DNA from: Chitinophaga pinensis
GTDB lineage: Bacteria > Bacteroidota > Bacteroidia > 2-12-FULL-35-15
Assembly: GCA_945879015.1 (NCBI GenBank)
Contig: CAMCUO010000001.1
Coordinates: forward strand, 42,659-106,658
Length of the DNA: 64,000 nucleotides
Direction of reading: 5' to 3'
Position numbers and translations under genes: made by a program. Positions 1,303 to 31,453 of the stretch are shown here, in pieces (the stretch's first letter is position 1; the number at the start of each line of letters is the position of its first letter). A model generated the notes under the pieces. The model did not search any database and had not been told where the DNA came from. It was given only the letters and a program-made list of their open reading frames with translations.

Positions 1303-3396
1303 ATGATGAAATTTGATTTACCAAAAGAAAACTCCTCAATTATAAAGGTAATTGGAGTAGGTGGTGGCGGAAGTAACGCTGTAAACCACATGTACAAACA
1401 AGGCATCAAAGGTGTTGATTTTATTGTGTGTAATACCGACCAACAGGCATTGGACATGAGTCCAGTTCCATTAAGAATAGTTTTAGGTGCAAGTTTAACA
1501 AAAGGTCGCGGTGCTGGATCTTTACCAGAAGTTGGTAAAAATGCTGCAATCGAAAATATAGAAGAAGTAAAAGCACTTTTAGCTAATAATACCGAAATGG
1601 TATTTATTACTGCTGGATTAGGTGGTGGAACAGGAACAGGTGCGGCTCCAATTATCGCGAAAGCAGCTAAAGAGATGGGAATTTTAACAGTAGGTATCGT
1701 TACTATTCCTTTCGGATTTGAAGGTAAAAAACGTAAAGCACAAGCAGATGCTGGTTTAGAAGCGTTAAAAGCAAATGTGGATACTTTACTAGTTATCAGC
1801 AATGATAAATTACGTGAGATTTATGGTAATTTAAAAGTAACAGAAGCTTTCGGTCATGCCGATGATATTTTAGCAACTGCTGCAAAAGGTATTGCTGATA
1901 TTATTACAACAACATTACAAATCAATACCGATATCAACGATGTTAAAACGGTAATGAAAGAAAGTGGTGTTGCAATTATGGGTTCTGCAATGGCAAGTGG
2001 TGAACAACGTTCTTTACGTGCTGTTGAGCAAGCAATGTCTTCTCCTTTATTAAACGATAGCAACATCAAAGGTGCTCGTTATGTGTTGGTGAATGTTACT
2101 TGTGGTGAAGACGAAATCACAATGGATGAATTTGGAGAAATTACAGATTATATTCAAGATGCTGCTGGAATGTCTGCAGAGGTTATCAAAGGATATGGTG
2201 TTGATCCTTCATTAGGTGATAAAGTAAATGTAACAATCATCGCTACTGGATTTAATTCTAAAGCAGATGTTGGAATTCAAATTGAAAAAGCTCCAGCTAA
2301 AAAAGTATTCTCTTTAATGGATGATGTTAAAGTTGAACTTTCTCCTGTTGCAGAACTTGTTACTCCTAAAGTAGAAGAAATTACATTGAAGCCAATGGAA
2401 ATGACTTCATACTTCAAATATGACACTTCAACTCCGCTCAGTGTGACAACAACAACTCCTGTTGCGGAAATTTTTCCACTTGTGACAACGGAAGTAGTAG
2501 AAGAAGTAAAAGCGGAAGACACTTCGACTGCGCTAAGTTTGACAAATTCATTTGTTAACGAGGTGGTTGCAGAGGAAACTTCCATGTTCGTGAATGAAAC
2601 AGAAGAAACTTATGTAGATGAAAATCCTATTATCGTTAATGAGATTATAGCTGAAGAAATACCAATTATAGTAAATGAAGTTGTTGCAGAAGAAACTCCA
2701 ATCATTGTTAATTCAATAATTGCAGAAGTAGTAGAGTCGGTTGCAAATATAAATGAGTTTGTAGAAGAAGAAGTCCTTTTTGTTAATGAAGTAATTGCTG
2801 ACAATTCGACTACGCTAAGTGTTACAGAATCTGAGGTAGTTAATGAAGTTGTAGCCGAAGAAGCTCCAATCATTATAAATGAAATTGTAGCTGAAGAGAC
2901 AAGTGTTGTTAACGAAATTGTAGCTGAAGAAGTTGTTTCAATTGTGAGTGAAGTGAAAGAAGAAGTTGTTGAATCAATTTTTGAAATAGAAGAAGTAAAA
3001 AAACCAGTAATATATGAATTTGAAATCAAGAGTAGAGTAGTTGCTTCTGAAGAGTCTACTATTGAAAGTAAAATAGAAGAGCATGTTGCGAAAGCTGAAC
3101 CAGTAATTCAAGCAAAAGAAGAAAACACAATTGTTGCAAAAGTTCAAAACGATGAGCAAATTAAAAAAGCGCAAGACCGTGTTGCTAAATTAAAAGAGTT
3201 AAGTTTTAAATTAAAGTCTCCAAATGGTTTATCTGAATTAGAGAATGAGCCAGCATACAAAAGAAGAAACATTAATTTAGATTCTACACCACATTCTTCT
3301 GAATCACAAGTGTCTCGTTATACTTTATCAGAAAATGAAGACAAGAAAGTTGAGATTAAACCAAACAATTCTTTTTTACACGATAACGTAGATTAA
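1303..3396 (+). CDS. ftsZ: Cell division GTPase FtsZ with a long repeat-rich acidic C-terminal linker (697 aa)
   Basis: The tubulin signature GGGTGTG and the N-terminal GTPase core are present. The C-terminus contains about 10 tandem 11-12 aa NE(V/I)(V/I)AEE(T)PIIV units, and an E-x-PAYKRR peptide near the end resembles the conserved C-terminal peptide. Confidence 0.93.
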   Translation: MMKFDLPKENSSIIKVIGVGGGGSNAVNHMYKQGIKGVDFIVCNTDQQALDMSPVPLRIVLGASLTKGRGAGSLPEVGKNAAIENIEEVKALLANNTEMVFITAGLGGGTGTGAAPIIAKAAKEMGILTVGIVTIPFGFEGKKRKAQADAGLEALKANVDTLLVISNDKLREIYGNLKVTEAFGHADDILATAAKGIADIITTTLQINTDINDVKTVMKESGVAIMGSAMASGEQRSLRAVEQAMSSPLLNDSNIKGARYVLVNVTCGEDEITMDEFGEITDYIQDAAGMSAEVIKGYGVDPSLGDKVNVTIIATGFNSKADVGIQIEKAPAKKVFSLMDDVKVELSPVAELVTPKVEEITLKPMEMTSYFKYDTSTPLSVTTTTPVAEIFPLVTTEVVEEVKAEDTSTALSLTNSFVNEVVAEETSMFVNETEETYVDENPIIVNEIIAEEIPIIVNEVVAEETPIIVNSIIAEVVESVANINEFVEEEVLFVNEVIADNSTTLSVTESEVVNEVVAEEAPIIINEIVAEETSVVNEIVAEEVVSIVSEVKEEVVESIFEIEEVKKPVIYEFEIKSRVVASEESTIESKIEEHVAKAEPVIQAKEENTIVAKVQNDEQIKKAQDRVAKLKELSFKLKSPNGLSELENEPAYKRRNINLDSTPHSSESQVSRYTLSENEDKKVEIKPNNSFLHDNVD

Positions 3397-3417
3397 TCAA
3401 TAAAGAAGTAAATACAA

Positions 3418-3458
3418 AAAAATCCCCCATGTCTATCGCGTGGGGGATTTTTTTTTGT
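3418..3458 (+). terminator. Rho-independent terminator downstream of ftsZ
   Basis: The stem atccccca/tgggggat is followed by a T9 run. Confidence 0.75.
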
Positions 3459-3532
3459 ATTAAAATCGGGATATGAGGAGTTGTAAAAAAAGCCTAACTT
3501 TAGACTTTAAAACTTTAAACTTTGAACTAAAA

Positions 3533-3976
3533 ATGGCTTTAGAAGAAAAAATAAATGCAGACATTAAATCTGCGATGTTAGCGAGGGAAGCTTCCAAATT
3601 AGATGCATTGCGTGCAATCAAATCAGCAATACTATTATTAAAGACTTCTCCTGAAGGATTGAATGATGATACAGAAATGAAAGCGTTGCTTAAGATGGTG
3701 AAACAACGTAAAGAAACGGCTGATCTATACATTACTCAAAATCGTAAGGATTTAGCAGATGTGGAATTAGCACAAGCAGCTGTAATAGAAGTTTATCTTC
3801 CACAACAAATGAGTGAAGAGGATATTAAAGCTGAAGTAGCAAAAATTATTACTGCTGTTGGCGCAACTTCTCCTGCTGATATGGGGAAAGTAATGGGTGC
3901 TGCATCAAAACAATTAGCTGGAAAAGCGGATGGTAAATTGATTTCTGGTATTGTAAAGGAGCTGTTGAGTAAATAG
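3533..3976 (+). CDS. GatB/YqeY domain protein
   Basis: MALEEKINADIKSAMLAREASKLDALRAIKSAI matches the N-terminus of the GatB/YqeY family. The start is taken at the internal ATG at 3533 within the longer ORF 3473-3976. Confidence 0.8.
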   Translation: MALEEKINADIKSAMLAREASKLDALRAIKSAILLLKTSPEGLNDDTEMKALLKMVKQRKETADLYITQNRKDLADVELAQAAVIEVYLPQQMSEEDIKAEVAKIITAVGATSPADMGKVMGAASKQLAGKADGKLISGIVKELLSK

Positions 3977-3980
3977 TAAT

Positions 3981-4041
3981 CGCCCTTCGACTCCGCTCAG
4001 GGTTACGGTTGAGTTGTCACCCTGAGCGTAGTAGAAGGGCG
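3981..4041. repeat. Full palindromic copy of the CTTCGACTCCGCTCAGGGTGAC repeat family (REP/terminator-like hairpin)
   Basis: cgcccttcgactccgctcagggt pairs with accctgagcgtagtagaagggcg, giving about 21 of 23 matching bases. The half-unit recurs at 6935-6959 and 30126-30149 and inside two coding sequences. Confidence 0.7.
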
Positions 4042-4067
4042 TTATCCGTAAAAGTTGTATAGCAACC

Positions 4068-4919
4068 TTACAAAGGAAACTGCAATCCTAAAACCAATAT
4101 ATTCTCAAACGTCCAGAAATGATGTTTGGCTTTTCCTTCTCCTAAAACAAGTACATCTGTATAGTTTGCCCAAGCTCCTTTGGCAGTATATTCTAAATAA
4201 ATATATTTATAAACATCGTAACGCAAACCTGCTTCAACGCCCATACAATATCCAGCTACATGGAATTTATTATTTAATGGTACACCAAAAAGTATAACAT
4301 CAGTTCTCGGAATAACCGGACCAGCACCAATTTTTGCAACACCACTTACCCAATGCTTTTTATTTTTAGAAACAAACAATCGTTGACGCTTTACAAAGTT
4401 CAACATCAAAAAATTCGCTCCGTCAGAATGTTCAAAGTGCAAAAATGTGTTAGGATCAATTAAAGTATCTTGGTCAATTGTTTGTCCGTGAATCGTTCCT
4501 GTAACACGTAATGTTTGGTAATCATCCATGATATATTTAACGTGATCAAAATTAATTTCAATTCCAAAGTCTTTTTTGTCGTTGAAAAAATATCCTATAC
4601 GATAAACATATTGTGGAATGGTTAGATCGGTTCTTAATATATCTTTAAATCCGGGGCGATCATGAGCTTTTGCATCATAAACAGTAAAGTCATACGATTT
4701 TGGTTGTGATTTTTGAGCATCATAATCAGTGGTGGTGTTTGTAAAATGAATATCACTTTTTGAAAAATAATCTCTGCCATATCCCCATGAAAAATAAAAT
4801 GTTCCTTTTCCAACTTTTGATTGTGATGGACAATCACAAATTTCATTTTTTTCCTGAGAAAATAAATTTTCAGAACAACATAAAAGGATTAAGATTCCAA
4901 TTGAAAAATATTTTCTCAT
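4068..4919 (-). CDS. Hypothetical secreted/outer-membrane protein (283 aa)
   Basis: The N-terminal signal peptide MRKYFSIGILILLCCSENLFSQ is present. No family was recognised. Confidence 0.5.
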   Translation of the reverse strand: MRKYFSIGILILLCCSENLFSQEKNEICDCPSQSKVGKGTFYFSWGYGRDYFSKSDIHFTNTTTDYDAQKSQPKSYDFTVYDAKAHDRPGFKDILRTDLTIPQYVYRIGYFFNDKKDFGIEINFDHVKYIMDDYQTLRVTGTIHGQTIDQDTLIDPNTFLHFEHSDGANFLMLNFVKRQRLFVSKNKKHWVSGVAKIGAGPVIPRTDVILFGVPLNNKFHVAGYCMGVEAGLRYDVYKYIYLEYTAKGAWANYTDVLVLGEGKAKHHFWTFENILVLGLQFPL

Positions 4920-5086
4920 TGATTTTTATTTTTTTTATTCGTAAACCCTATAAGCAATAAAACTGCCCAAGGCATGTAAAACGGACTAAGTGTTCTAAAG
5001 GAAACAGAGGCAACAAAGAATAATAGCAAAGAGATAGATGTTGTTACTCCCATTCCTATTAATCCTATTTTAACCAGTCGACTCAT
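4916..5086 (-). CDS. Possible small membrane protein (56 aa), translationally coupled to the downstream gene
   Basis: ATG at 5086. The predicted product MSRLVKIGLIGMGVTTSISLLLFFVASVSFRTLSPFYMPWAVLLLIGFTNKKNKNQ has two hydrophobic segments. Its TGA stop overlaps the ATG of the 4068-4919 gene in an ATGA arrangement. It falls below the 60 aa cutoff of the ORF track. Confidence 0.3.
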   Translation of the reverse strand: MSRLVKIGLIGMGVTTSISLLLFFVASVSFRTLSPFYMPWAVLLLIGFTNKKNKNQ

Positions 5087-5145
5087 TTAATTTAAATATG
5101 CACAAAGGTAATTAAATCAATTTTATAGTTTATTAGAATTTTTTT

Positions 5146-5193
5146 CCTTCTCCATTTGGAGAAGGTGTCCCGCTTTTAGCGGGACGGATGAGG
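5146..5193. repeat. Intergenic hairpin repeat, copy 2 (ccttctccatttggagaagg + gtcccgcttttagcgggac + ggatgagg)
   Basis: Two adjacent perfect hairpins followed by GGATGAGG. The sequence is near-identical to copy 3 at 8942-8990. Confidence 0.6.
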
Positions 5194-5195
5194 CC

Positions 5196-5226
5196 ATAAA
5201 AAAACCCAGACGATAAATGTCTGGGT
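5196..5226 (-). terminator. Rho-independent terminator of groEL
   Basis: The stem acccagac/gtctgggt is followed by a T-run on the minus strand. Confidence 0.7.
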
Positions 5227-5249
5227 TTTATATTTTAATGATAATAATA

Positions 5250-6893
<1,644 letters not shown>

Positions 6894-6934
6894 TTATGTT
6901 TATTGGTTAATTAGTTAATTGGTTAAATTGGGTC

Positions 6935-6959
6935 GTCACCCTGAGCGTAGTCGAAGGGC
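6935..6959. repeat. Half-unit of the CTTCGACTCCGCTCAGGGTGAC repeat, in reverse orientation, between groES and groEL
   Basis: The sequence is gtcaccctgagcgtagtcgaagggc. Confidence 0.6.
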
Positions 6960-6971
6960 ACTATTCGTGAC

Positions 6972-7274
6972 CTAAACGATTGCGAAGATATCACTCTCAC
7001 GCATTATTAAAAGATCTTTGCCTTCTACCTGAACTTCAGTTCCTGCATATTTTCCATACAGTACTGTATCTCCAACTTTTACCTCAGGTTTGTTTCCTTT
7101 TTCATCTTTATCACTTACTGCAATTACAATTCCTCTCTGAGGTTTTTCTTTTGCTGTATCTGGAATAATAATTCCACTAGCAGTCTTTTCTTCTGCAGCA
7201 GCTGCTTCAACAACTACTCTGTTTTGAGTCCCAGCTACTGGCTTGATGTTTACTTTTGAACTTGTCTTTGCCAT
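6972..7274 (-). CDS. groS: Co-chaperonin GroES
   Basis: VNIKP..., the [12 protein letters not shown] mobile loop and [14 protein letters not shown] are present, and the gene lies immediately upstream of groEL. Confidence 0.9.
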
Positions 7275-7396
7275 CTTATATTCTATTTATTAGTTTAACT
7301 TATGTTTTAAATTTTGTGTTTTCGGATAGTCAGAAATTATACCAAATGCTTATTATTGTTTAATTGCGACAATTTTGCAGACTCGAAATGCACATC

Positions 7397-7435
7397 AACA
7401 AAAAATGTCAGAAATATGAACTGGTTTCTGACATT
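7397..7435 (-). terminator. Rho-independent terminator of secG
   Basis: A perfect 11 bp stem aatgtcagaaa/tttctgacatt is followed by a T-run on the minus strand. Confidence 0.7.
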
Positions 7436-7456
7436 TTTAAAATATGTTTTACATAA

Positions 7457-7819
7457 TTATTTTGGACTAGGAGCAGGTGCAGGTGATGGTGTAATAGGAG
7501 CTACATTACTTTCTGGTGCAGCAGGTGTTACGTCTTCAGCAGCTTTCTGACGAGTTACTGATTCTGTTCCCGTTCCTCTTGTTACTCCATCCGATGTATT
7601 TGTAAATGATGTAGACATTACACTTAAAATTAATAGCAATGCTGCTAAAGTCCATGTAGCTTTTTCTAAAAAATCGGCCGTTTTGCGAACTCCCATTACT
7701 TGATTAGAAGATGCAAATGATGACGCTAATCCACCACCTTTTGAATTTTGTACTAAAACCACTAAGATTAAAAGTATACAAACTACTATAATTAAAATTG
7801 AAATAATTGATGAGCCCAT
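7457..7819 (-). CDS. secG: Preprotein translocase subunit SecG with a Pro/Ala-rich C-terminal tail
   Basis: LILVVLVQNSKGGGLASSFASSNQVMG is the SecG signature, and two transmembrane segments are present. Confidence 0.8.
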   Translation of the reverse strand: MGSSIISILIIVVCILLILVVLVQNSKGGGLASSFASSNQVMGVRKTADFLEKATWTLAALLLILSVMSTSFTNTSDGVTRGTGTESVTRQKAAEDVTPAAPESNVAPITPSPAPAPSPK

Positions 7820-7825
7820 TGTAAA

Positions 7826-8905
7826 TTATTGCTTTTGTTGATTAATTAATTTCCTCAAATTTTTTATTTGGGATGCAAAGTAAAGTCTTTTTTCTGGATA
7901 TTTCAAGCGTAAATTTTCATAAGCCTTAATTGCTTTGGCATAATTACCTTGTAAAACGTAGATTTTAGCTAGTGTTTCACTCACAAAAGTGATGTCTTCA
8001 GCCACACTTTGCTTAGCCATGTTCACTGGACTGAAAAATTCGGTTTTTGGGCGATTAAGCTTTGGCTCATCGCGTATAAATTTATCAATTAATTCGAACG
8101 GACTAAGTTGATTATCAGTGTTTTCTGATTCTAGCTCTTCCTTTGTATCTTCGTTAGTTGCTGTCCTTGTATTTACATGTTTTAACCAATCTGTGAATGA
8201 AAGCGAATCTATGTCAACATCCTCATTTGTCAAACCGAGCGTAATCGAAGTATCAGTTATTGACTCTGGAATATTAAGTACAAAATTCGATTCAACAGTC
8301 TCTTGTTTTTCTTCAGATGCATTAATTAAAGGAGTGGATAAAATTTCAATTTCAACACTTGCGTCTATAATTTCATTTAAATATCCTGTCTCTAATTGAT
8401 CTCTTACTTCTAAGGCTGCAACTTCTGAGGATTCAGTCTTTTCTGTCACGCTGAGCGGAGTGGAAATGTTTTCTTCTTCAATTTCAGGGGTAACAGGTGT
8501 TTTCGTCACACTGACCGGAGTGTAAGTGTCTGTAACTATTACCTCTTCTGTAACAACTGGCTGAATTTTTTGTTCCTCAACTTCTTCTCTGATTAAATTA
8601 ATAACTGCTTCTTCAATTTTCTTTTCTTCAATCTGATTGATAGTGTCAGGAATTTTTACTGCTTCAATTTCTTGCTGTTTTGTAATTAAACGGTGCAGTA
8701 TTTTTCTATCGGTAGCATAAGCAGCCGTTACTCGTAGTTGATTGTTATAATGAATGCTATTAATATTGTGTAAGCTCTTTGCATAAAGCAAATGAGCCGT
8801 TTGGAAATAAGGAAAATTCTTCAACAATTCAGCAAGCAAAACGCTATCATTCCCCGAAATTTTTTCCGGAGTTTCTACGTATGATATGAATTGTACTTTG
8901 TTCAT
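7826..8905 (-). CDS. Hypothetical protein with a C-terminal TPR-like segment and an acidic central linker carrying three in-frame copies of the 23 bp repeat
   Basis: The C-terminus LAKIYVLQGNYAKAIKAYENLRLKYPEKRLY is TPR-like. The linker contains ISTPLSVT, YTPVSVT and TSITLGLT, encoded by repeat units at 8445-8466, 8505-8526 and 8229-8251. Confidence 0.55.
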   Translation of the reverse strand: MNKVQFISYVETPEKISGNDSVLLAELLKNFPYFQTAHLLYAKSLHNINSIHYNNQLRVTAAYATDRKILHRLITKQQEIEAVKIPDTINQIEEKKIEEAVINLIREEVEEQKIQPVVTEEVIVTDTYTPVSVTKTPVTPEIEEENISTPLSVTEKTESSEVAALEVRDQLETGYLNEIIDASVEIEILSTPLINASEEKQETVESNFVLNIPESITDTSITLGLTNEDVDIDSLSFTDWLKHVNTRTATNEDTKEELESENTDNQLSPFELIDKFIRDEPKLNRPKTEFFSPVNMAKQSVAEDITFVSETLAKIYVLQGNYAKAIKAYENLRLKYPEKRLYFASQIKNLRKLINQQKQ

Positions 8906-29264: not shown

Positions 29265-30119
29265 ATGAAACTAAAAATAGCAATACAAAAGTCAGGACGA
29301 TTGAATGAAGATTCTCTCAAAATTTTAAAAGAAGCTGGAATAGAATTTAATAATGGAATCAATAAATTGAAGGCCGAAGCAGTAAATTTTCCCTTAGAGG
29401 TGTTTTTCCTTCGCGATGATGATATTCCTCAATATATTGAAGATGGTGTTGCGGATATTGGAATCGTTGGCGAAAATGTAGTTCTTGAGAAAAATAAAGA
29501 TGTAAAAATTGTAGATCGTTTAGGGTTTGGCAAATGTCGTTTGTCAATTGCTATACCTAAAAATCAAAAATACAAAGGCCTTTCTGATTTAGAAGGAAAA
29601 CGAATTGCCACAAGTTATTCTAAAGTTCTTTCGAAGTATTTAAAGAAAAACAAAATAAATGCTGAGATACACGAAATAAGCGGGTCGGTGGAAATTGCTC
29701 CAGGAATAGGCTTGGCGGATGCTATCTGCGATTTGGTTAGCTCCGGAAGTACTTTATTCACAAACGGACTGAAAGAAGTGGAAGTGATATTGAAATCGGA
29801 GGCGGTTTTGGTTGCGAATAATAATTTATCAAAAGAGCAACAAGTTATTTTAGATAAATTACTTTTCAGAATAAATGCAGTTAAAAAAGCAAAGAGCAAT
29901 AAATATATTTTGTTAAATGCACCGAATAAAAATTTAGATGCGATCTGTAAGATTTTACCAGGCATGAAAAGTCCTACCATCTTGCCTTTGGCAGATAAAG
30001 GTTGGAGCTCTGTTCATAGCGTAGTAAATGAAAACGAATTTTGGGACATCATCGAAAAATTGAAAGCAAATGGAGCAGAAGGGATTTTGGTGGTTCCGAT
30101 TGAAAAAATGATACTATAG
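29265..30119 (+). CDS. hisG: ATP phosphoribosyltransferase (long form)
   Basis: MKLKIAIQKSGRL... is present, and a C-terminal regulatory domain is included. Confidence 0.92.
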   Translation: MKLKIAIQKSGRLNEDSLKILKEAGIEFNNGINKLKAEAVNFPLEVFFLRDDDIPQYIEDGVADIGIVGENVVLEKNKDVKIVDRLGFGKCRLSIAIPKNQKYKGLSDLEGKRIATSYSKVLSKYLKKNKINAEIHEISGSVEIAPGIGLADAICDLVSSGSTLFTNGLKEVEVILKSEAVLVANNNLSKEQQVILDKLLFRINAVKKAKSNKYILLNAPNKNLDAICKILPGMKSPTILPLADKGWSSVHSVVNENEFWDIIEKLKANGAEGILVVPIEKMIL

Positions 30120-30125
30120 CCATCT

Positions 30126-30149
30126 CCCTTCGACTCCGCTCAGGGTGAC
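30126..30149. repeat. Half-unit of the CTTCGACTCCGCTCAGGGTGAC repeat between hisG and hisD
   Basis: The sequence is cccttcgactccgctcagggtgac. Confidence 0.6.
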
Positions 30150-30175: not shown

Positions 30176-31453
30176 GTGAAAACAATAAAATATCCATTAA
30201 GAAGTGATTGGTCTGAATTAATAAAACGACCAATTTTTGATAATGCTTCGCTTGAAAGTGCTGTTAAGGCTGTGTTGCTTGATGTTAAGCAAAATGGCGA
30301 TGTGGCAATAAAAAAGTATACAAAACAATTTGATAAAGTAGAACTTGAAAAGTTGCTTGTAACTGAAGAGGAATTTATAGAAGCAGAAAAAAATGTTTCT
30401 GATAATTTGAAAAATGCAATTCATTTAGCAAAATTAAATATCGAAAAATTTCACATTACTCAAAAAGAAGATATTAAAGTTGTTGAAACTACAGATGGTG
30501 TTTTGTGCTGGAGAAAATCGGTAGCAATCGAAAAGGTTGGTTTGTATATTCCTGGTGGTTCTGCTCCTTTGTTTTCCACTGTTTTAATGTTGGGAATTCC
30601 AGCAGCTCTTGCTGGATGCAAAGAAGTTTTATTATGTAGTCCGCCAGATATAAATGGAAAAATTAATCCTGCAATTTTGTACACAGCAAAATTAGTTGGA
30701 ATAACAAAAGTGTTTAAAGTTGGAGGAGCACAAGCAATAGCTGCAATGGCTTATGGAACTGAAACTATTTCGAAAGCGTATAAAATATTCGGACCAGGAA
30801 ACCAATATGTCACTTGTGCTAAACAATTGGTAAGCAGCGAAGGAATAGCTATTGATATGCCTGCTGGTCCATCAGAAGTGGCAACATTGGCGGACGAAAC
30901 CTGCGTTCCTGCATTTGTTGCTGCGGACCTTCTATCACAAGCTGAACACGGAGCAGATTCTCAGGTAATATTGGTTTCTACAGATGAGAAGGTCATTGAA
31001 GATGTAATTACTGAATTGAATAAACAAGTTGAATTGTTGCCAAGAAAAGCAATCGCTATCAAAGCCCTTGAAAACAGTAAAGCAGTTTTAGTCAAAGATA
31101 CAGATGAGGCTTTTGATTTATTAAATGAATATGCTCCTGAACATTTAATTATAGCTTGTAAGGATGAGGAAGTTTTAGCAGAGAAAGTGATCAATGCAGG
31201 ATCTGTTTTTTTAGGAAACTATTCTTGTGAAAGTGCAGGTGATTATGCTTCCGGAACAAATCATACCTTGCCAACCAATGGAAATGCAAAAGCATATAGT
31301 GGAGTTTCATTAGATAGCTTTATGAAAAAAATTACATTCCAGAAAATATCAGAAAGAGGAATTAATATCATTGGAAAAGCAATAGAAATAATGGCTGAGG
31401 CCGAGGGATTAAGTGCTCACAAGAATTCAGTAAGTATCAGACTAAAAAAATAA
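30176..31453 (+). CDS. hisD: Histidinol dehydrogenase
   Basis: Family-level match across the length. The apparent start is a GTG at 30176. Confidence 0.9.
   Translation: MKTIKYPLRSDWSELIKRPIFDNASLESAVKAVLLDVKQNGDVAIKKYTKQFDKVELEKLLVTEEEFIEAEKNVSDNLKNAIHLAKLNIEKFHITQKEDIKVVETTDGVLCWRKSVAIEKVGLYIPGGSAPLFSTVLMLGIPAALAGCKEVLLCSPPDINGKINPAILYTAKLVGITKVFKVGGAQAIAAMAYGTETISKAYKIFGPGNQYVTCAKQLVSSEGIAIDMPAGPSEVATLADETCVPAFVAADLLSQAEHGADSQVILVSTDEKVIEDVITELNKQVELLPRKAIAIKALENSKAVLVKDTDEAFDLLNEYAPEHLIIACKDEEVLAEKVINAGSVFLGNYSCESAGDYASGTNHTLPTNGNAKAYSGVSLDSFMKKITFQKISERGINIIGKAIEIMAEAEGLSAHKNSVSIRLKK

What the first reader, a model, noticed from the sequence alone, without database searches (positions are those of the whole stretch)
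2425..8526. A 23 bp palindromic repeat unit (consensus cCTTCGACTCCGCTCAGGGTGAC) is present both intergenically and as in-frame, same-frame insertions inside ftsZ and a second gene
Ten copies were seen in this window. The intergenic copies are 3981-4003 paired with 4019-4041 (a full palindrome), 6935-6959 and 30126-30149. Three copies lie inside the ftsZ C-terminal linker (2425-2447, 2521-2543, 2803-2825) and three inside the acidic linker of the 7826-8905 gene (8229-8251, 8445-8466, 8505-8526). Every coding copy sits in the same orientation and the same one of the four open reading frames of the unit, which would translate the consensus as TSTPLRVT. The observed peptides are TSTPLSVT, TSTALSLT, NSTTLSVT, ISTPLSVT, YTPVSVT and TSITLGLT. 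Two unrelated proteins therefore share a DNA-level motif that also exists as intergenic hairpins. This is the signature of a small mobile palindromic element that tolerates in-frame insertion into disordered protein linkers, as described for Rickettsia palindromic elements. I am not aware of it being described for an essential division gene in Bacteroidetes.
Basis: partly seen in the sequence, partly recalled or inferred. Interest (0 to 1): 0.72.

Follow-up and report, generated by a model that had tools for sequence, protein, structure and literature searches.

The report
Hairpin repeat embedded in FtsZ linker
A short, very widespread bacterial DNA hairpin repeat that normally sits between genes is also carried in-frame inside the floppy linker of the cell-division protein FtsZ and of a second protein in this Bacteroidia genome, a new example of a phenomenon already known from Rickettsia and other bacteria.

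Summary
Exactly ten copies of the unit occur in the window: four intergenic, three in the ftsZ linker and three in the acidic linker of gene 7826-8905. All six coding copies share one orientation and one frame.

The unit is not itself a palindrome. It is a 4-bp covarying stem around an invariant 14-nt interior (TTCGACTNCGCTCA), followed by a GAC(A/G) tag. Only the inverted pair at 3982-4040 forms a strong hairpin.

The same unit occurs in many phyla and in phage contigs. It lies mostly intergenic at gene 3' ends, and in-frame in other proteins such as SufS and a RecN-like protein. It is absent from Rfam.

The coding copies keep rare GC-rich codons in a genome with 24% GC3. They are patchy among close FtsZ orthologs, sit at different linker positions, and are derived relative to outgroups. 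This is DNA-level ancestry, not an old peptide motif.

The closest described relatives are CGTC/TGTC-tagged REP-like repeats, which include Rickettsia RPE-4/6, and in-frame RPEs in general. It shares their tag, genomic context and intragenic habit, but not their 8-9 bp stem and 4-5 nt loop.

Mobility is inferred, not shown, and no clean insertion footprints were found. Verdict: a new member of a known kind, of moderate interest.

The parts
1303..3396 (+). ftsZ (697 aa). The globular domain ends at residue 317. The acidic repeat-rich C-terminal linker spans about residues 330-604 (nt ~2290-3115). The conserved C-terminal region starts at about residue 605.
   Evidence: ORF. Pfam Tubulin 14-174 and FtsZ_C 222-317. 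Ortholog alignment.
2423..2447 (+). Coding copy 1 (stem ACAC/GTGT intact). Encodes D-TSTPLSVT at FtsZ residues 374-382.
   Evidence: 3 mismatches. CM E=5.3e-7. Shared with ortholog L001 at the same site and absent from L002.
2519..2543 (+). Coding copy 2, partly decayed (CTC->CTA, GTG->TTG). Encodes D-TSTALSLT.
   Evidence: 5 mismatches. CM E=9.1e-5. Orthologs have EETPIIVNE units here.
2801..2825 (+). Coding copy 3, decayed. Encodes D-NSTTLSVT. It lies in a 19-aa segment absent from the closest ortholog.
   Evidence: 6 mismatches. CM E=0.15. Alignment.
3982..4040 (.). Inverted head-to-head pair of units (3982-4006 on +, 4016-4040 on -), between the convergent genes yqeY-like 3473-3976 (+) and 4068-4919 (-). 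It forms a strong bidirectional hairpin.
   Evidence: 1 and 2 mismatches. RNA fold -41.2 and -39.5 kcal/mol, z -7.4 and -8.6. Relatives have unrelated terminator hairpins or variants at this place.
6935..6959 (-). Single intergenic unit, 15 nt after the groES stop and upstream of groEL.
   Evidence: 1 mismatch. CM E=1.2e-8. A unit is at the same place in distant relative L007, a variant hairpin in L003, and none in L004/L006.
7826..8905 (-). Conserved Bacteroidia protein (359 aa) with a C-terminal TPR-like repeat and a variable acidic central linker. It lies upstream of secG.
   Evidence: ORF. Weak TPR hits below Pfam cut-offs. Ortholog alignment.
8505..8529 (-). Coding copy, decayed interior. 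Encodes D-TYTPVSVT.
   Evidence: 5 mismatches. CM E=1.3.
8445..8469 (-). Coding copy. Encodes N-ISTPLSVT.
   Evidence: 4 mismatches. CM E=2.7e-4.
8229..8253 (-). Coding copy, decayed. Encodes D-TSITLGLT. It is absent from orthologs L003 and L004 (7-aa gap).
   Evidence: 6 mismatches. CM E=0.047. Alignment.
30125..30149 (+). Single intergenic unit with perfect consensus, a few nt after the stop of gene 29265-30119 and before gene 30176-31453.
   Evidence: 0 mismatches. CM E=6.5e-9. ORFs.

Best explanation
The unit is a member of a very widespread family of short REP/RPE-like stem-loop repeats. Its layout is 5'-[4-nt stem]-TTCGACT-N-CGCTCA-[4-nt complementary stem]-GAC(A/G)-3'. On the other strand this reads as a (T/C)GTC tag followed by the hairpin.

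Intergenic copies sit just downstream of genes, singly or as inverted pairs. The pairs give strong hairpins that probably act as terminators or 3'-end stabilisers. That function is inferred.

Copies have repeatedly entered coding DNA. They survive only where the protein tolerates about 8 extra residues, namely disordered linkers and surface loops. They survive mainly in the one reading frame that gives an uncharged Ser/Thr/Pro-rich peptide, (D)TSTxLSVT.

In this Bacteroidia clade the long acidic FtsZ C-terminal linker and the acidic linker of the TPR-like protein are such tolerant places and have been colonised several times. Once inside a gene the copies behave as neutral passengers. They decay towards AT-rich codons and are duplicated or lost together with linker repeat units.

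Shown: repeat identity, structure covariation, distribution, the DNA-level rather than peptide-level signal, and the derived and patchy state in orthologs.

Inferred: that spread is by transposition of a single-stranded hairpin, by a RAYT-like/HUH or some other enzyme that remains unidentified, and that the coding copies have no function of their own.
For: - Ten copies against 0 expected. An independent CM recovers the same ten.
- Stem covariation in 148 copies from other genomes: 89% of cells paired against 63% shuffled; covariation score 0.74 against 0.24 (0 of 500 shuffles reach it); slid controls <=0.14. Pair types are CG/GC/AU/UA.
- A sister family (TTCGCTTCGCTCA interior) has the same architecture.
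- Genomic context is REP-like: about 85-88% intergenic, convergent 29 against divergent 7.
- Coding copies use rare codons. Only 0.3% of synonymous encodings of DTSTPLSVT are as improbable, and the same codons recur at independent sites and in different genomes.
- Motif presence is patchy in FtsZ orthologs, about 8 of the 21 closest, at at least 5 different linker positions.
- At site A the element-free sequence is shared by L002 and by more distant orthologs, so the element allele is derived.
- The second gene has copies at at least 5 different positions in 5 genomes and none in L003.
- Copies differ in decay: 2-3 mismatches in L001/L004/L007 against 3-6 in the window.
- The same in-frame peptide occurs in unrelated proteins elsewhere: SufS with +5 aa relative to PDB homologs, a RecN-like protein, methylase-like orthologs and an alpha-2-macroglobulin-like protein.
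- The TSTxLSVT frame accounts for 18 of 39 coding hits against 25% expected.
- Published precedent: intragenic in-frame REPs and RPEs (PMC3733652, PMC10969869).
Against: - No transposase or mobilising gene was identified.
- There are no target-site duplications, and no clean filled/empty site pair. At ftsZ site A the element allele replaces about 16-18 nt of the ancestral sequence.
- Same-population contigs are identical to the window, so no present-day insertion polymorphism is seen.
- In about 77 kb of this genome all 5 intergenic copies have stem gCCC/GGGT, while all coding copies have ACAC/GTGT-type stems. The coding copies are therefore not recent offspring of the sampled intergenic copies.
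- Six well-preserved coding copies in four genomes show no synonymous differences. This could mean DNA-level selection rather than recent insertion.
Confidence: 0.7

Rival explanations
1. One or two ancient insertions of an ACAC/GTGT-type unit occurred. All further coding copies then arose by unequal crossing-over, unit duplication and gene conversion within and between the two GAA-rich linkers, not by repeated insertion.
For: - The ftsZ linker is built of diverged EETPIIVNEVVA units whose number varies between orthologs.
- ftsZ copies 2 and 3 share the derived CTC->CTA change.
- All coding copies in five genomes share the same stem variant, which differs from the intergenic copies of the same genome.
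- The uniform frame follows automatically from this model.
Against: - Copies differ at the variable N position (C/G/A) and in their flanks.
- Near-consensus copies coexist with decayed ones.
- The same peptide-coding unit is found in unrelated, non-repetitive proteins of other organisms.
- TRF finds no DNA-level tandem array that includes the units.
Confidence: 0.18
2. The coding copies are kept because the nucleic-acid hairpin itself is functional inside ftsZ and the second gene. It would be an RNA or ssDNA element bound by a conserved factor, or an uptake- or recognition-type signal, and the peptide would be a by-product.
For: - The 14-nt interior is invariant across phyla and the stems covary.
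- Well-preserved coding copies keep a perfect 4-bp stem and show no synonymous change across four genomes.
- ftsZ carries a good copy in 5 of 7 related genomes examined.
Against: - Positions within the linker are not conserved.
- Many orthologs, including the closest, lack any copy.
- Window copies are visibly decaying, including in the interior and the stem.
- A single unit folds weakly, -2.8 kcal/mol for the ftsZ copy.
- A plain double-stranded recognition signal would not need covarying stems.
Confidence: 0.09
3. DTSTxLSVT is an old short linear peptide motif of these linkers, conserved at protein level, and its similarity to the intergenic repeat is coincidental.
For: The peptide recurs in two linkers and in several orthologs.
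Against: - The codons are the rare GC-rich ones of the repeat.
- The residue at codon 4 varies while its third base is fixed.
- The distribution is patchy and the positions vary.
- 20 of 23 nt match an element with 0 chance expectation.
Confidence: 0.02

Closest known systems
CGTC/TGTC-tagged REP-like stem-loop repeats (Di Nocera, De Gregorio & Rocco 2013, PMC3733652). The group includes Rickettsia RPE-4/RPE-6 and Neisseria dRS3.
   Same: - A (T/C)GTC tag at one end of a short hairpin. Here the base after GAC is A in 72% and G in 14% of copies.
- The first stem pair is mostly A-T.
- Units occur singly and as head-to-head dimers with abutting tags.
- They sit downstream of ORFs between convergent or co-directional genes.
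- They are found in several phyla including Bacteroidetes.
- Intragenic in-frame units occur in housekeeping and repair genes.
- No associated transposase is known.
   Different: - The described families have 8-9 bp stems, 4-5 nt loops and a CCA tail. This unit has only 4 covarying pairs around an invariant 14-nt interior and no CCA tail.
- I could not see the paper's Figure 2, so I cannot say whether its Gramella forsetii family is this one.
Rickettsia palindromic elements (RPE; Ogata et al. 2000, from my own knowledge; summarised in PMC10969869)
   Same: A repeated element found both between genes and inserted in-frame in unrelated, functional genes, adding a conserved peptide in tolerated regions.
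   Different: - The classic RPEs described there (about 150 bp, ten identified families) are far longer than this 25-nt unit, and are Rickettsia-specific.
- This family is cross-phylum.
- No sequence relationship was tested or seen.
REP/REPIN elements mobilised by RAYT transposases (Bertels & Rainey 2011, PMC3116915)
   Same: Short hairpin repeats, often as inverted pairs, extragenic at gene 3' ends, present in many copies.
   Different: - REPs carry a GTAG tag and longer imperfect palindromes, and their sequence is lineage-specific.
- They have a cognate single-copy RAYT flanked by REPs.
- None of this is shown here.
DNA uptake sequences of Neisseria and Pasteurellaceae (own knowledge)
   Same: Inverted pairs serve as terminators, and coding copies are biased to certain frames and to tolerant protein regions.
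   Different: - Uptake sequences are 9-12 nt motifs at about 1 per kb, without covarying stems, and are restricted to competent lineages.
- Here the density is about 1 per 6-7 kb and hairpin covariation is strong.

Membership tests
CGTC-tagged REPs (PMC3733652) | Terminal CGTC tag (TGTC is a frequent variant) next to the hairpin | tested here: met
   GAC is followed by A in 112 and by G in 21 of 155 copies, giving TGTC or CGTC on the other strand. GAC itself was fixed by the search pattern in that set. In the window, which was found with the full 23-mer allowing mismatches, 9 of 10 copies keep GAC and 1 has TAC.
CGTC-tagged REPs (PMC3733652) | Stem of 8-9 bp | tested here: not met
   Only 4 positions covary. 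Positions 5-10 outward pair at chance level.
CGTC-tagged REPs (PMC3733652) | Loop of 4-5 nt | tested here: not met
   A 14-nt conserved interior, TTCGACTNCGCTCA, lies between the stem arms.
CGTC-tagged REPs (PMC3733652) | Short unpaired tail, mostly CCA, at the untagged end | tested here: not met
   Positions -5 to -7 are G/A/A-rich, which reads CTY on the tag strand, with no CCA consensus.
CGTC-tagged REPs (PMC3733652) | Mostly downstream of ORFs, between convergent or co-directional genes, with some intragenic in-frame units | tested here: met
   Convergent 29 against divergent 7. 12-15% of copies lie in crude ORF calls, in all four open frames.
CGTC-tagged REPs (PMC3733652) | Head-to-head dimers predominate | tested here: inconclusive
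   Head-to-head pairs occur in the window, L007 and many metagenome loci, but tail-to-tail pairs are also frequent in the genome scan.
Rickettsia palindromic elements | In-frame presence in functional ORFs as well as intergenic copies | tested here: met
   Six in-frame copies in two intact ORFs and four intergenic copies.
Rickettsia palindromic elements | Membership of one of the RPE sequence families (about 150 bp for the classic RPEs; Rickettsia) | tested here: not met
   The unit is 25 nt and the organism is an uncultured Bacteroidia bacterium. It works like an RPE but is not one.
REP/REPIN-RAYT | GTAG tag and a cognate RAYT gene flanked by the repeat | tested here: not met
   The tag is GTC(A), not GTAG.
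MITE | Terminal inverted repeats of an IS, with target-site duplications | tested here: not met
   No direct repeats flank the copies. At 25 nt the unit is far below MITE size.
Any Rfam family | Match to a curated covariance model | tested here: not met
   The only gathering-level hit in the window is a tRNA. Permissive scans of two copies gave only generic hairpin (miRNA) hits far below gathering scores.

The most novel reading that the evidence does not exclude
The unit may be more than a selfish passenger. It would then belong to an uncatalogued, cross-phylum structured nucleic-acid module: a 4-bp helix, an invariant 13-14 nt interior with an optional extra helix at position N, and a GAC tag, recognised by a conserved but unknown factor. 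In this Bacteroidia clade it would be actively maintained in ftsZ, either as an mRNA/ssDNA element or as raw material from which the FtsZ linker is built. The linker unit TPIIVNE (ACTCCAATCATTGTTAATGAA) matches the element-encoded TPLSVTE (ACTCCGCTCAGTGTGACAGAA) at 15 of 21 nt by my own inspection.
Probability: 0.1. Interest if true: 0.7.

Novelty: new member of a known kind. Interest (0 to 1): 0.45.

Why it matters
The result shows that the disordered C-terminal linker of an essential division protein is an open landing site for repeat DNA. It has been colonised repeatedly in one Bacteroidia clade, always in the single frame that yields a harmless Ser/Thr-rich peptide.

That extends the Rickettsia-type "repeat inside a gene" phenomenon to free-living Bacteroidota and to FtsZ. 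It also gives a natural experiment on what FtsZ linkers tolerate.

Separately, the repeat family itself deserves cataloguing. It has short covarying stems and a 13-14 nt interior invariant across more than ten phyla and in phages, it is absent from Rfam, and no mobilising enzyme is known. It generates spurious ORFs and odd protein segments in annotation. What recognises its loop is an open question.

Tried and rejected
- **Rfam.** The gathering scan of the window and two permissive scans found no family.
- **Full-text searches for the DNA strings and encoded peptides.** These returned only chance primer matches or nothing.
- **Literature search for FtsZ plus palindromic element.** No report was found.
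- **BLAST of the inverted pair against plasmids.** No match.
- **Strain-level filled/empty sites.** The only same-species contigs (L150, L151) are 99.99-100% identical to the window, so they are uninformative.
- **Sense-strand 3'-UTR RNA element.** This was suggested by the four window copies but is not general. Orientation relative to the upstream gene is 61 same against 62 opposite, and single units are 41 antisense against 24 sense.
- **G.T wobble as evidence for the written strand.** Rejected. In the three truly covarying pairs, A.C/C.A mismatches (16) exceed G.T/T.G (5). If wobble matters, this favours the GTCA-tagged strand.
- **A CDS-specific ACAC/GTGT subfamily.** Rejected as a general rule. 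In metagenomes that variant is intergenic in 100 of 114 cases. Within this genome, however, the split between coding and intergenic stem types is complete.
- **Stems derived from the target sequence.** Rejected, because the same stem variants recur within genomes.
- **tRNA T-arm, tmRNA or hammerhead-like readings of the interior.** Considered by eye and dropped because the required complementary segments are absent. No formal test was run.
- **Derivation of the EETPIIVNEVVA linker unit from the element.** TRF finds no DNA-level array and the CM finds no extra weak hits in the linker. It is kept only as a low-probability speculation.

Full report
**1. The observation**

It gives exactly ten at <=6 mismatches, with an empty gap at 7-8 mismatches. 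The window is 34% GC, so this 65% GC 23-mer cannot arise by chance.

The copies are:
- 2425, 2521 and 2803 (+), in ftsZ (1303-3396).
- 3984 (+) and 4016 (-), an inverted pair between the convergent genes 3473-3976 and 4068-4919.
- 6935 (-), in the groES-groEL spacer.
- 30127 (+), between co-directional genes.
- 8229, 8445 and 8505 (-), in gene 7826-8905.

**2. What the unit is**

Related loci showed that the bases flanking a constant core vary in a complementary way. I scanned one genome per species with the stem positions left free (TTCGACTNCGCTCANNNNGAC).

Most hits are Bacteroidota: Flavobacterium, Pedobacter, Hymenobacter, Algoriphagus, Dyadobacter, Chryseobacterium and others. There are also hits in Acidobacteriota, Verrucomicrobiota, Zixibacteria, Ignavibacteria, Chloroflexi, Planctomycetes, Cyanobacteria, candidate-phyla-radiation lineages and some Clostridia MAGs.

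In 155 distinct copies the three positions on either side of the 14-nt core pair in 97%, 89% and 88% of cases, with CG, GC, AT and TA all used. The fourth position is A:T or G:T. Further out, pairing is at chance.

On an alignment of 148 copies, 89.4% of cells pair against 62.6% in shuffles. The covariation score is 0.741 against 0.243, reached by 0 of 500 shuffles, and the slid controls are <=0.143.

The unit is therefore 5'-[4 nt]-TTCGACT-N-CGCTCA-[4 nt complementary]-GAC(A/G). A single unit is not a palindrome and folds weakly (-6.6 kcal/mol, z = -0.65). The inverted pair at 3982-4040 folds at -41 kcal/mol (z = -7.4).

A covariance model built only from these foreign copies ranks the ten window copies as its ten best hits, with E from 6.5e-9 to 1.3 and the next hit at E=3.1.

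A sister family with a 13-nt interior (TTCGCTTCGCTCA) has the same stem, tag and upstream AGAG, and is equally common in phage contigs. No Rfam family matches.

**3. Genomic behaviour of the family**

About 85-88% of copies are intergenic. They lie between convergent genes far more often than between divergent ones, 29 against 7.

There is no overall orientation bias relative to the upstream gene, 61 against 62. Single units between co-directional genes are somewhat more often antisense, 41 against 24.

Units occur singly, as head-to-head pairs with abutting tags (TGAC|GTCA), as tail-to-tail pairs, and in one MAG as a 26-27 nt tandem array in which two units carry a 44-nt insert at position N.

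Downstream of yqeY, relatives have either a variant of the unit or an ordinary terminator hairpin. This fits a terminator or 3'-end role for the pair, though that role is inferred.

**4. The coding copies reflect DNA ancestry, not a peptide motif**

In 46 genes of the window GC3 is 24%. The coding copies use GAC (19% of Asp codons), TCG (9%), CCG/ACG/GCG (9-12%), CTC (2%) and GTG (16%). Only 0.3% of random synonymous encodings of DTSTPLSVT are as improbable.

The same codons recur in ftsZ and in the second gene of four other genomes. At codon 4 the amino acid changes (P/T/A) because the element's free position N is the first codon base, while the synonymous third base G is fixed. This is the reverse of protein-level conservation.

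**5. Orthologs**

The closest FtsZ relatives come from uncultured Bacteroidia. Among the 120 best hits the motif appears in only 8 (7 by the regular-expression search, plus P0018 seen in the alignment). Seven of these are in the clade with the long EETPIIVNEVVA-type linker and one (P0046) lies outside it, and the copies sit at at least five different alignment positions.

The closest relative, L002, is 95% nt identical in the N-terminal domain and has none. Copy 1 is shared with L001.

At that site L002 and more distant orthologs share the sequence KKEEVKVEAVVE, so the element allele is derived. L003 has a composite at the same site, with a reversed unit read as FIQSEVEV.

The second gene has copies at at least five different positions in five genomes and none in L003.

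Copies range from near-consensus (L001, L004, L007) to clearly decayed (window copies 2 and 3, 8229, 8505). Gain and decay therefore look ongoing.

The footprints are not clean. At site A the element replaces about 16-18 nt rather than simply adding to the sequence.

**6. Generality**

The ACAC/GTGT stem variant carried by all coding copies here is mostly intergenic in metagenomes, 100 of 114. The in-frame (D/H/N)TSTxLSVT version also occurs elsewhere:
- a SufS cysteine desulfurase, 5 residues longer than solved homologs at exactly that loop;
- a RecN-like protein;
- two orthologous methylase-like proteins;
- an alpha-2-macroglobulin-like protein;
- a T9SS-tail protein.

Over both scans the TSTxLSVT frame holds 18 of 39 coding hits against 25% expected. 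The other open frames give FDSAQGD, VTLSGVEG or the very basic HPERSRR.

In the two linkers studied, 14 of 15 copies are in this frame. Selection for a tolerable peptide and intragenic duplication both contribute. ftsZ copies 2 and 3 share the CTC->CTA change.

**7. An unexplained detail**

In about 77 kb of this genome all five intergenic units have the stem gCCC/GGGT, whereas all six coding units are of ACAC/GTGT type. The coding units are thus not recent copies of the sampled intergenic ones.

Three explanations remain open. They may come from another subfamily. Only the Thr/Ser-encoding variant may be tolerated, since the CCC/GGG variant would encode Pro and Arg. Or the copies may spread between linkers.

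**8. Comparison with what is known**

In-frame repeat insertions are classic for Rickettsia RPEs (review PMC10969869).

Di Nocera et al. (PMC3733652) described two superfamilies of REP-like stem-loops, tagged GTAG or CGTC/TGTC. The CGTC group:
- occurs in five phyla including Bacteroidetes;
- equals Rickettsia RPE-4/6 and Neisseria dRS3;
- forms head-to-head dimers;
- lies downstream of ORFs;
- has intragenic in-frame members in repair and other housekeeping genes;
- lacks a dedicated transposase.

The present unit shares the tag, the A-T first pair, the dimers, the context and the intragenic habit. It fails the defining 8-9 bp stem, the 4-5 nt loop and the CCA tail. I therefore treat it as working like these elements and probably related to them, but not as a demonstrated member.

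I found no report of such an element in ftsZ.

**9. Verdict**

It is wrong in calling the unit a palindrome, and it is unproven as to active mobility.

This is a new member, with a variant architecture, of a known kind. It is of moderate interest for FtsZ-linker tolerance, and because this very widespread hairpin family appears uncatalogued.

Noticed in passing
L113 (Sphingobacteriales MAG JACXVB010000071.1), minus strand, about nt 430-760 of the reverse complement: A head-to-tail tandem array of the unit with a 26-27 nt period. In two units the free position N is replaced by a 44-nt insert that has its own hairpins (TTCGACTC-[44 nt]-CGCTCAGGGTGAC). The N position can therefore host an extra helix.
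   Followed up: partly
Viral contig loci L272-L391: A sister repeat family with interior TTCGCTTCGCTCA, one base shorter. It has the same 4-bp covarying stem, GAC tag and upstream AGAG.
   Followed up: partly
L003:11100-11180 (ftsZ of a relative): At the very site where the window and L001 carry copy 1, this ortholog has a 36-nt segment containing a reversed unit with its own stem (GTAC/GTAT). It is read in-frame as FIQSEVEV and is flanked by the remnants GATACT...AGTGTGACA of a forward unit. This is a nested or rearranged event.
   Followed up: partly
window 6888-6971 compared with L003:17114-17211 and L007:15980-16099 (groES-groEL spacers): The spacer carries a unit in the window and in the distant relative L007, where the 3' half is partially duplicated. 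L003 has a different, longer hairpin ending in GCTCGAAGTGAC. L004 and L006 have nothing.
   Followed up: partly
L002:2948-3020 (downstream of yqeY in the closest relative): The unit is replaced by CGCCCTTCAACTCAGATGAAGGTGAC, a perfect 6-bp hairpin (CCTTCA/TGAAGG) that keeps the TGAC tag. It looks as if the 3' arm had been re-templated from the 5' arm.
   Followed up: no
window 2290-3115 (FtsZ linker): The linker is built from diverged copies of an acidic 12-residue unit, EETPIIVNEVVA, whose number varies between orthologs. Its TPIIVNE part matches the element-encoded TPLSVTE at 15 of 21 nt by eye. No statistical support was obtained.
   Followed up: partly
L392:7424-7457 (same genome, about 50 nt beyond the window's right end): A fifth intergenic unit with perfect consensus and stem gCCC/GGGT, antisense to the flanking co-directional genes. 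All intergenic units sampled in this genome share this stem type, while all coding units have ACAC/GTGT-type stems.
   Followed up: partly
L187:12003-13268; L209:12235-13977; L161 and L171: In-frame DTSTxLSVT units occur in a SufS cysteine desulfurase (a loop 5 residues longer than in PDB 5vpr), in a RecN-like protein, and in two orthologous methylase-like proteins from metagenomes.
   Followed up: partly
L007:14211-14341: Downstream of yqeY this relative has GTCATTTCGAACGAAGAGAGAAATCTC, which looks like a further diverged relative of the repeat superfamily. A classical intrinsic terminator follows it.
   Followed up: no
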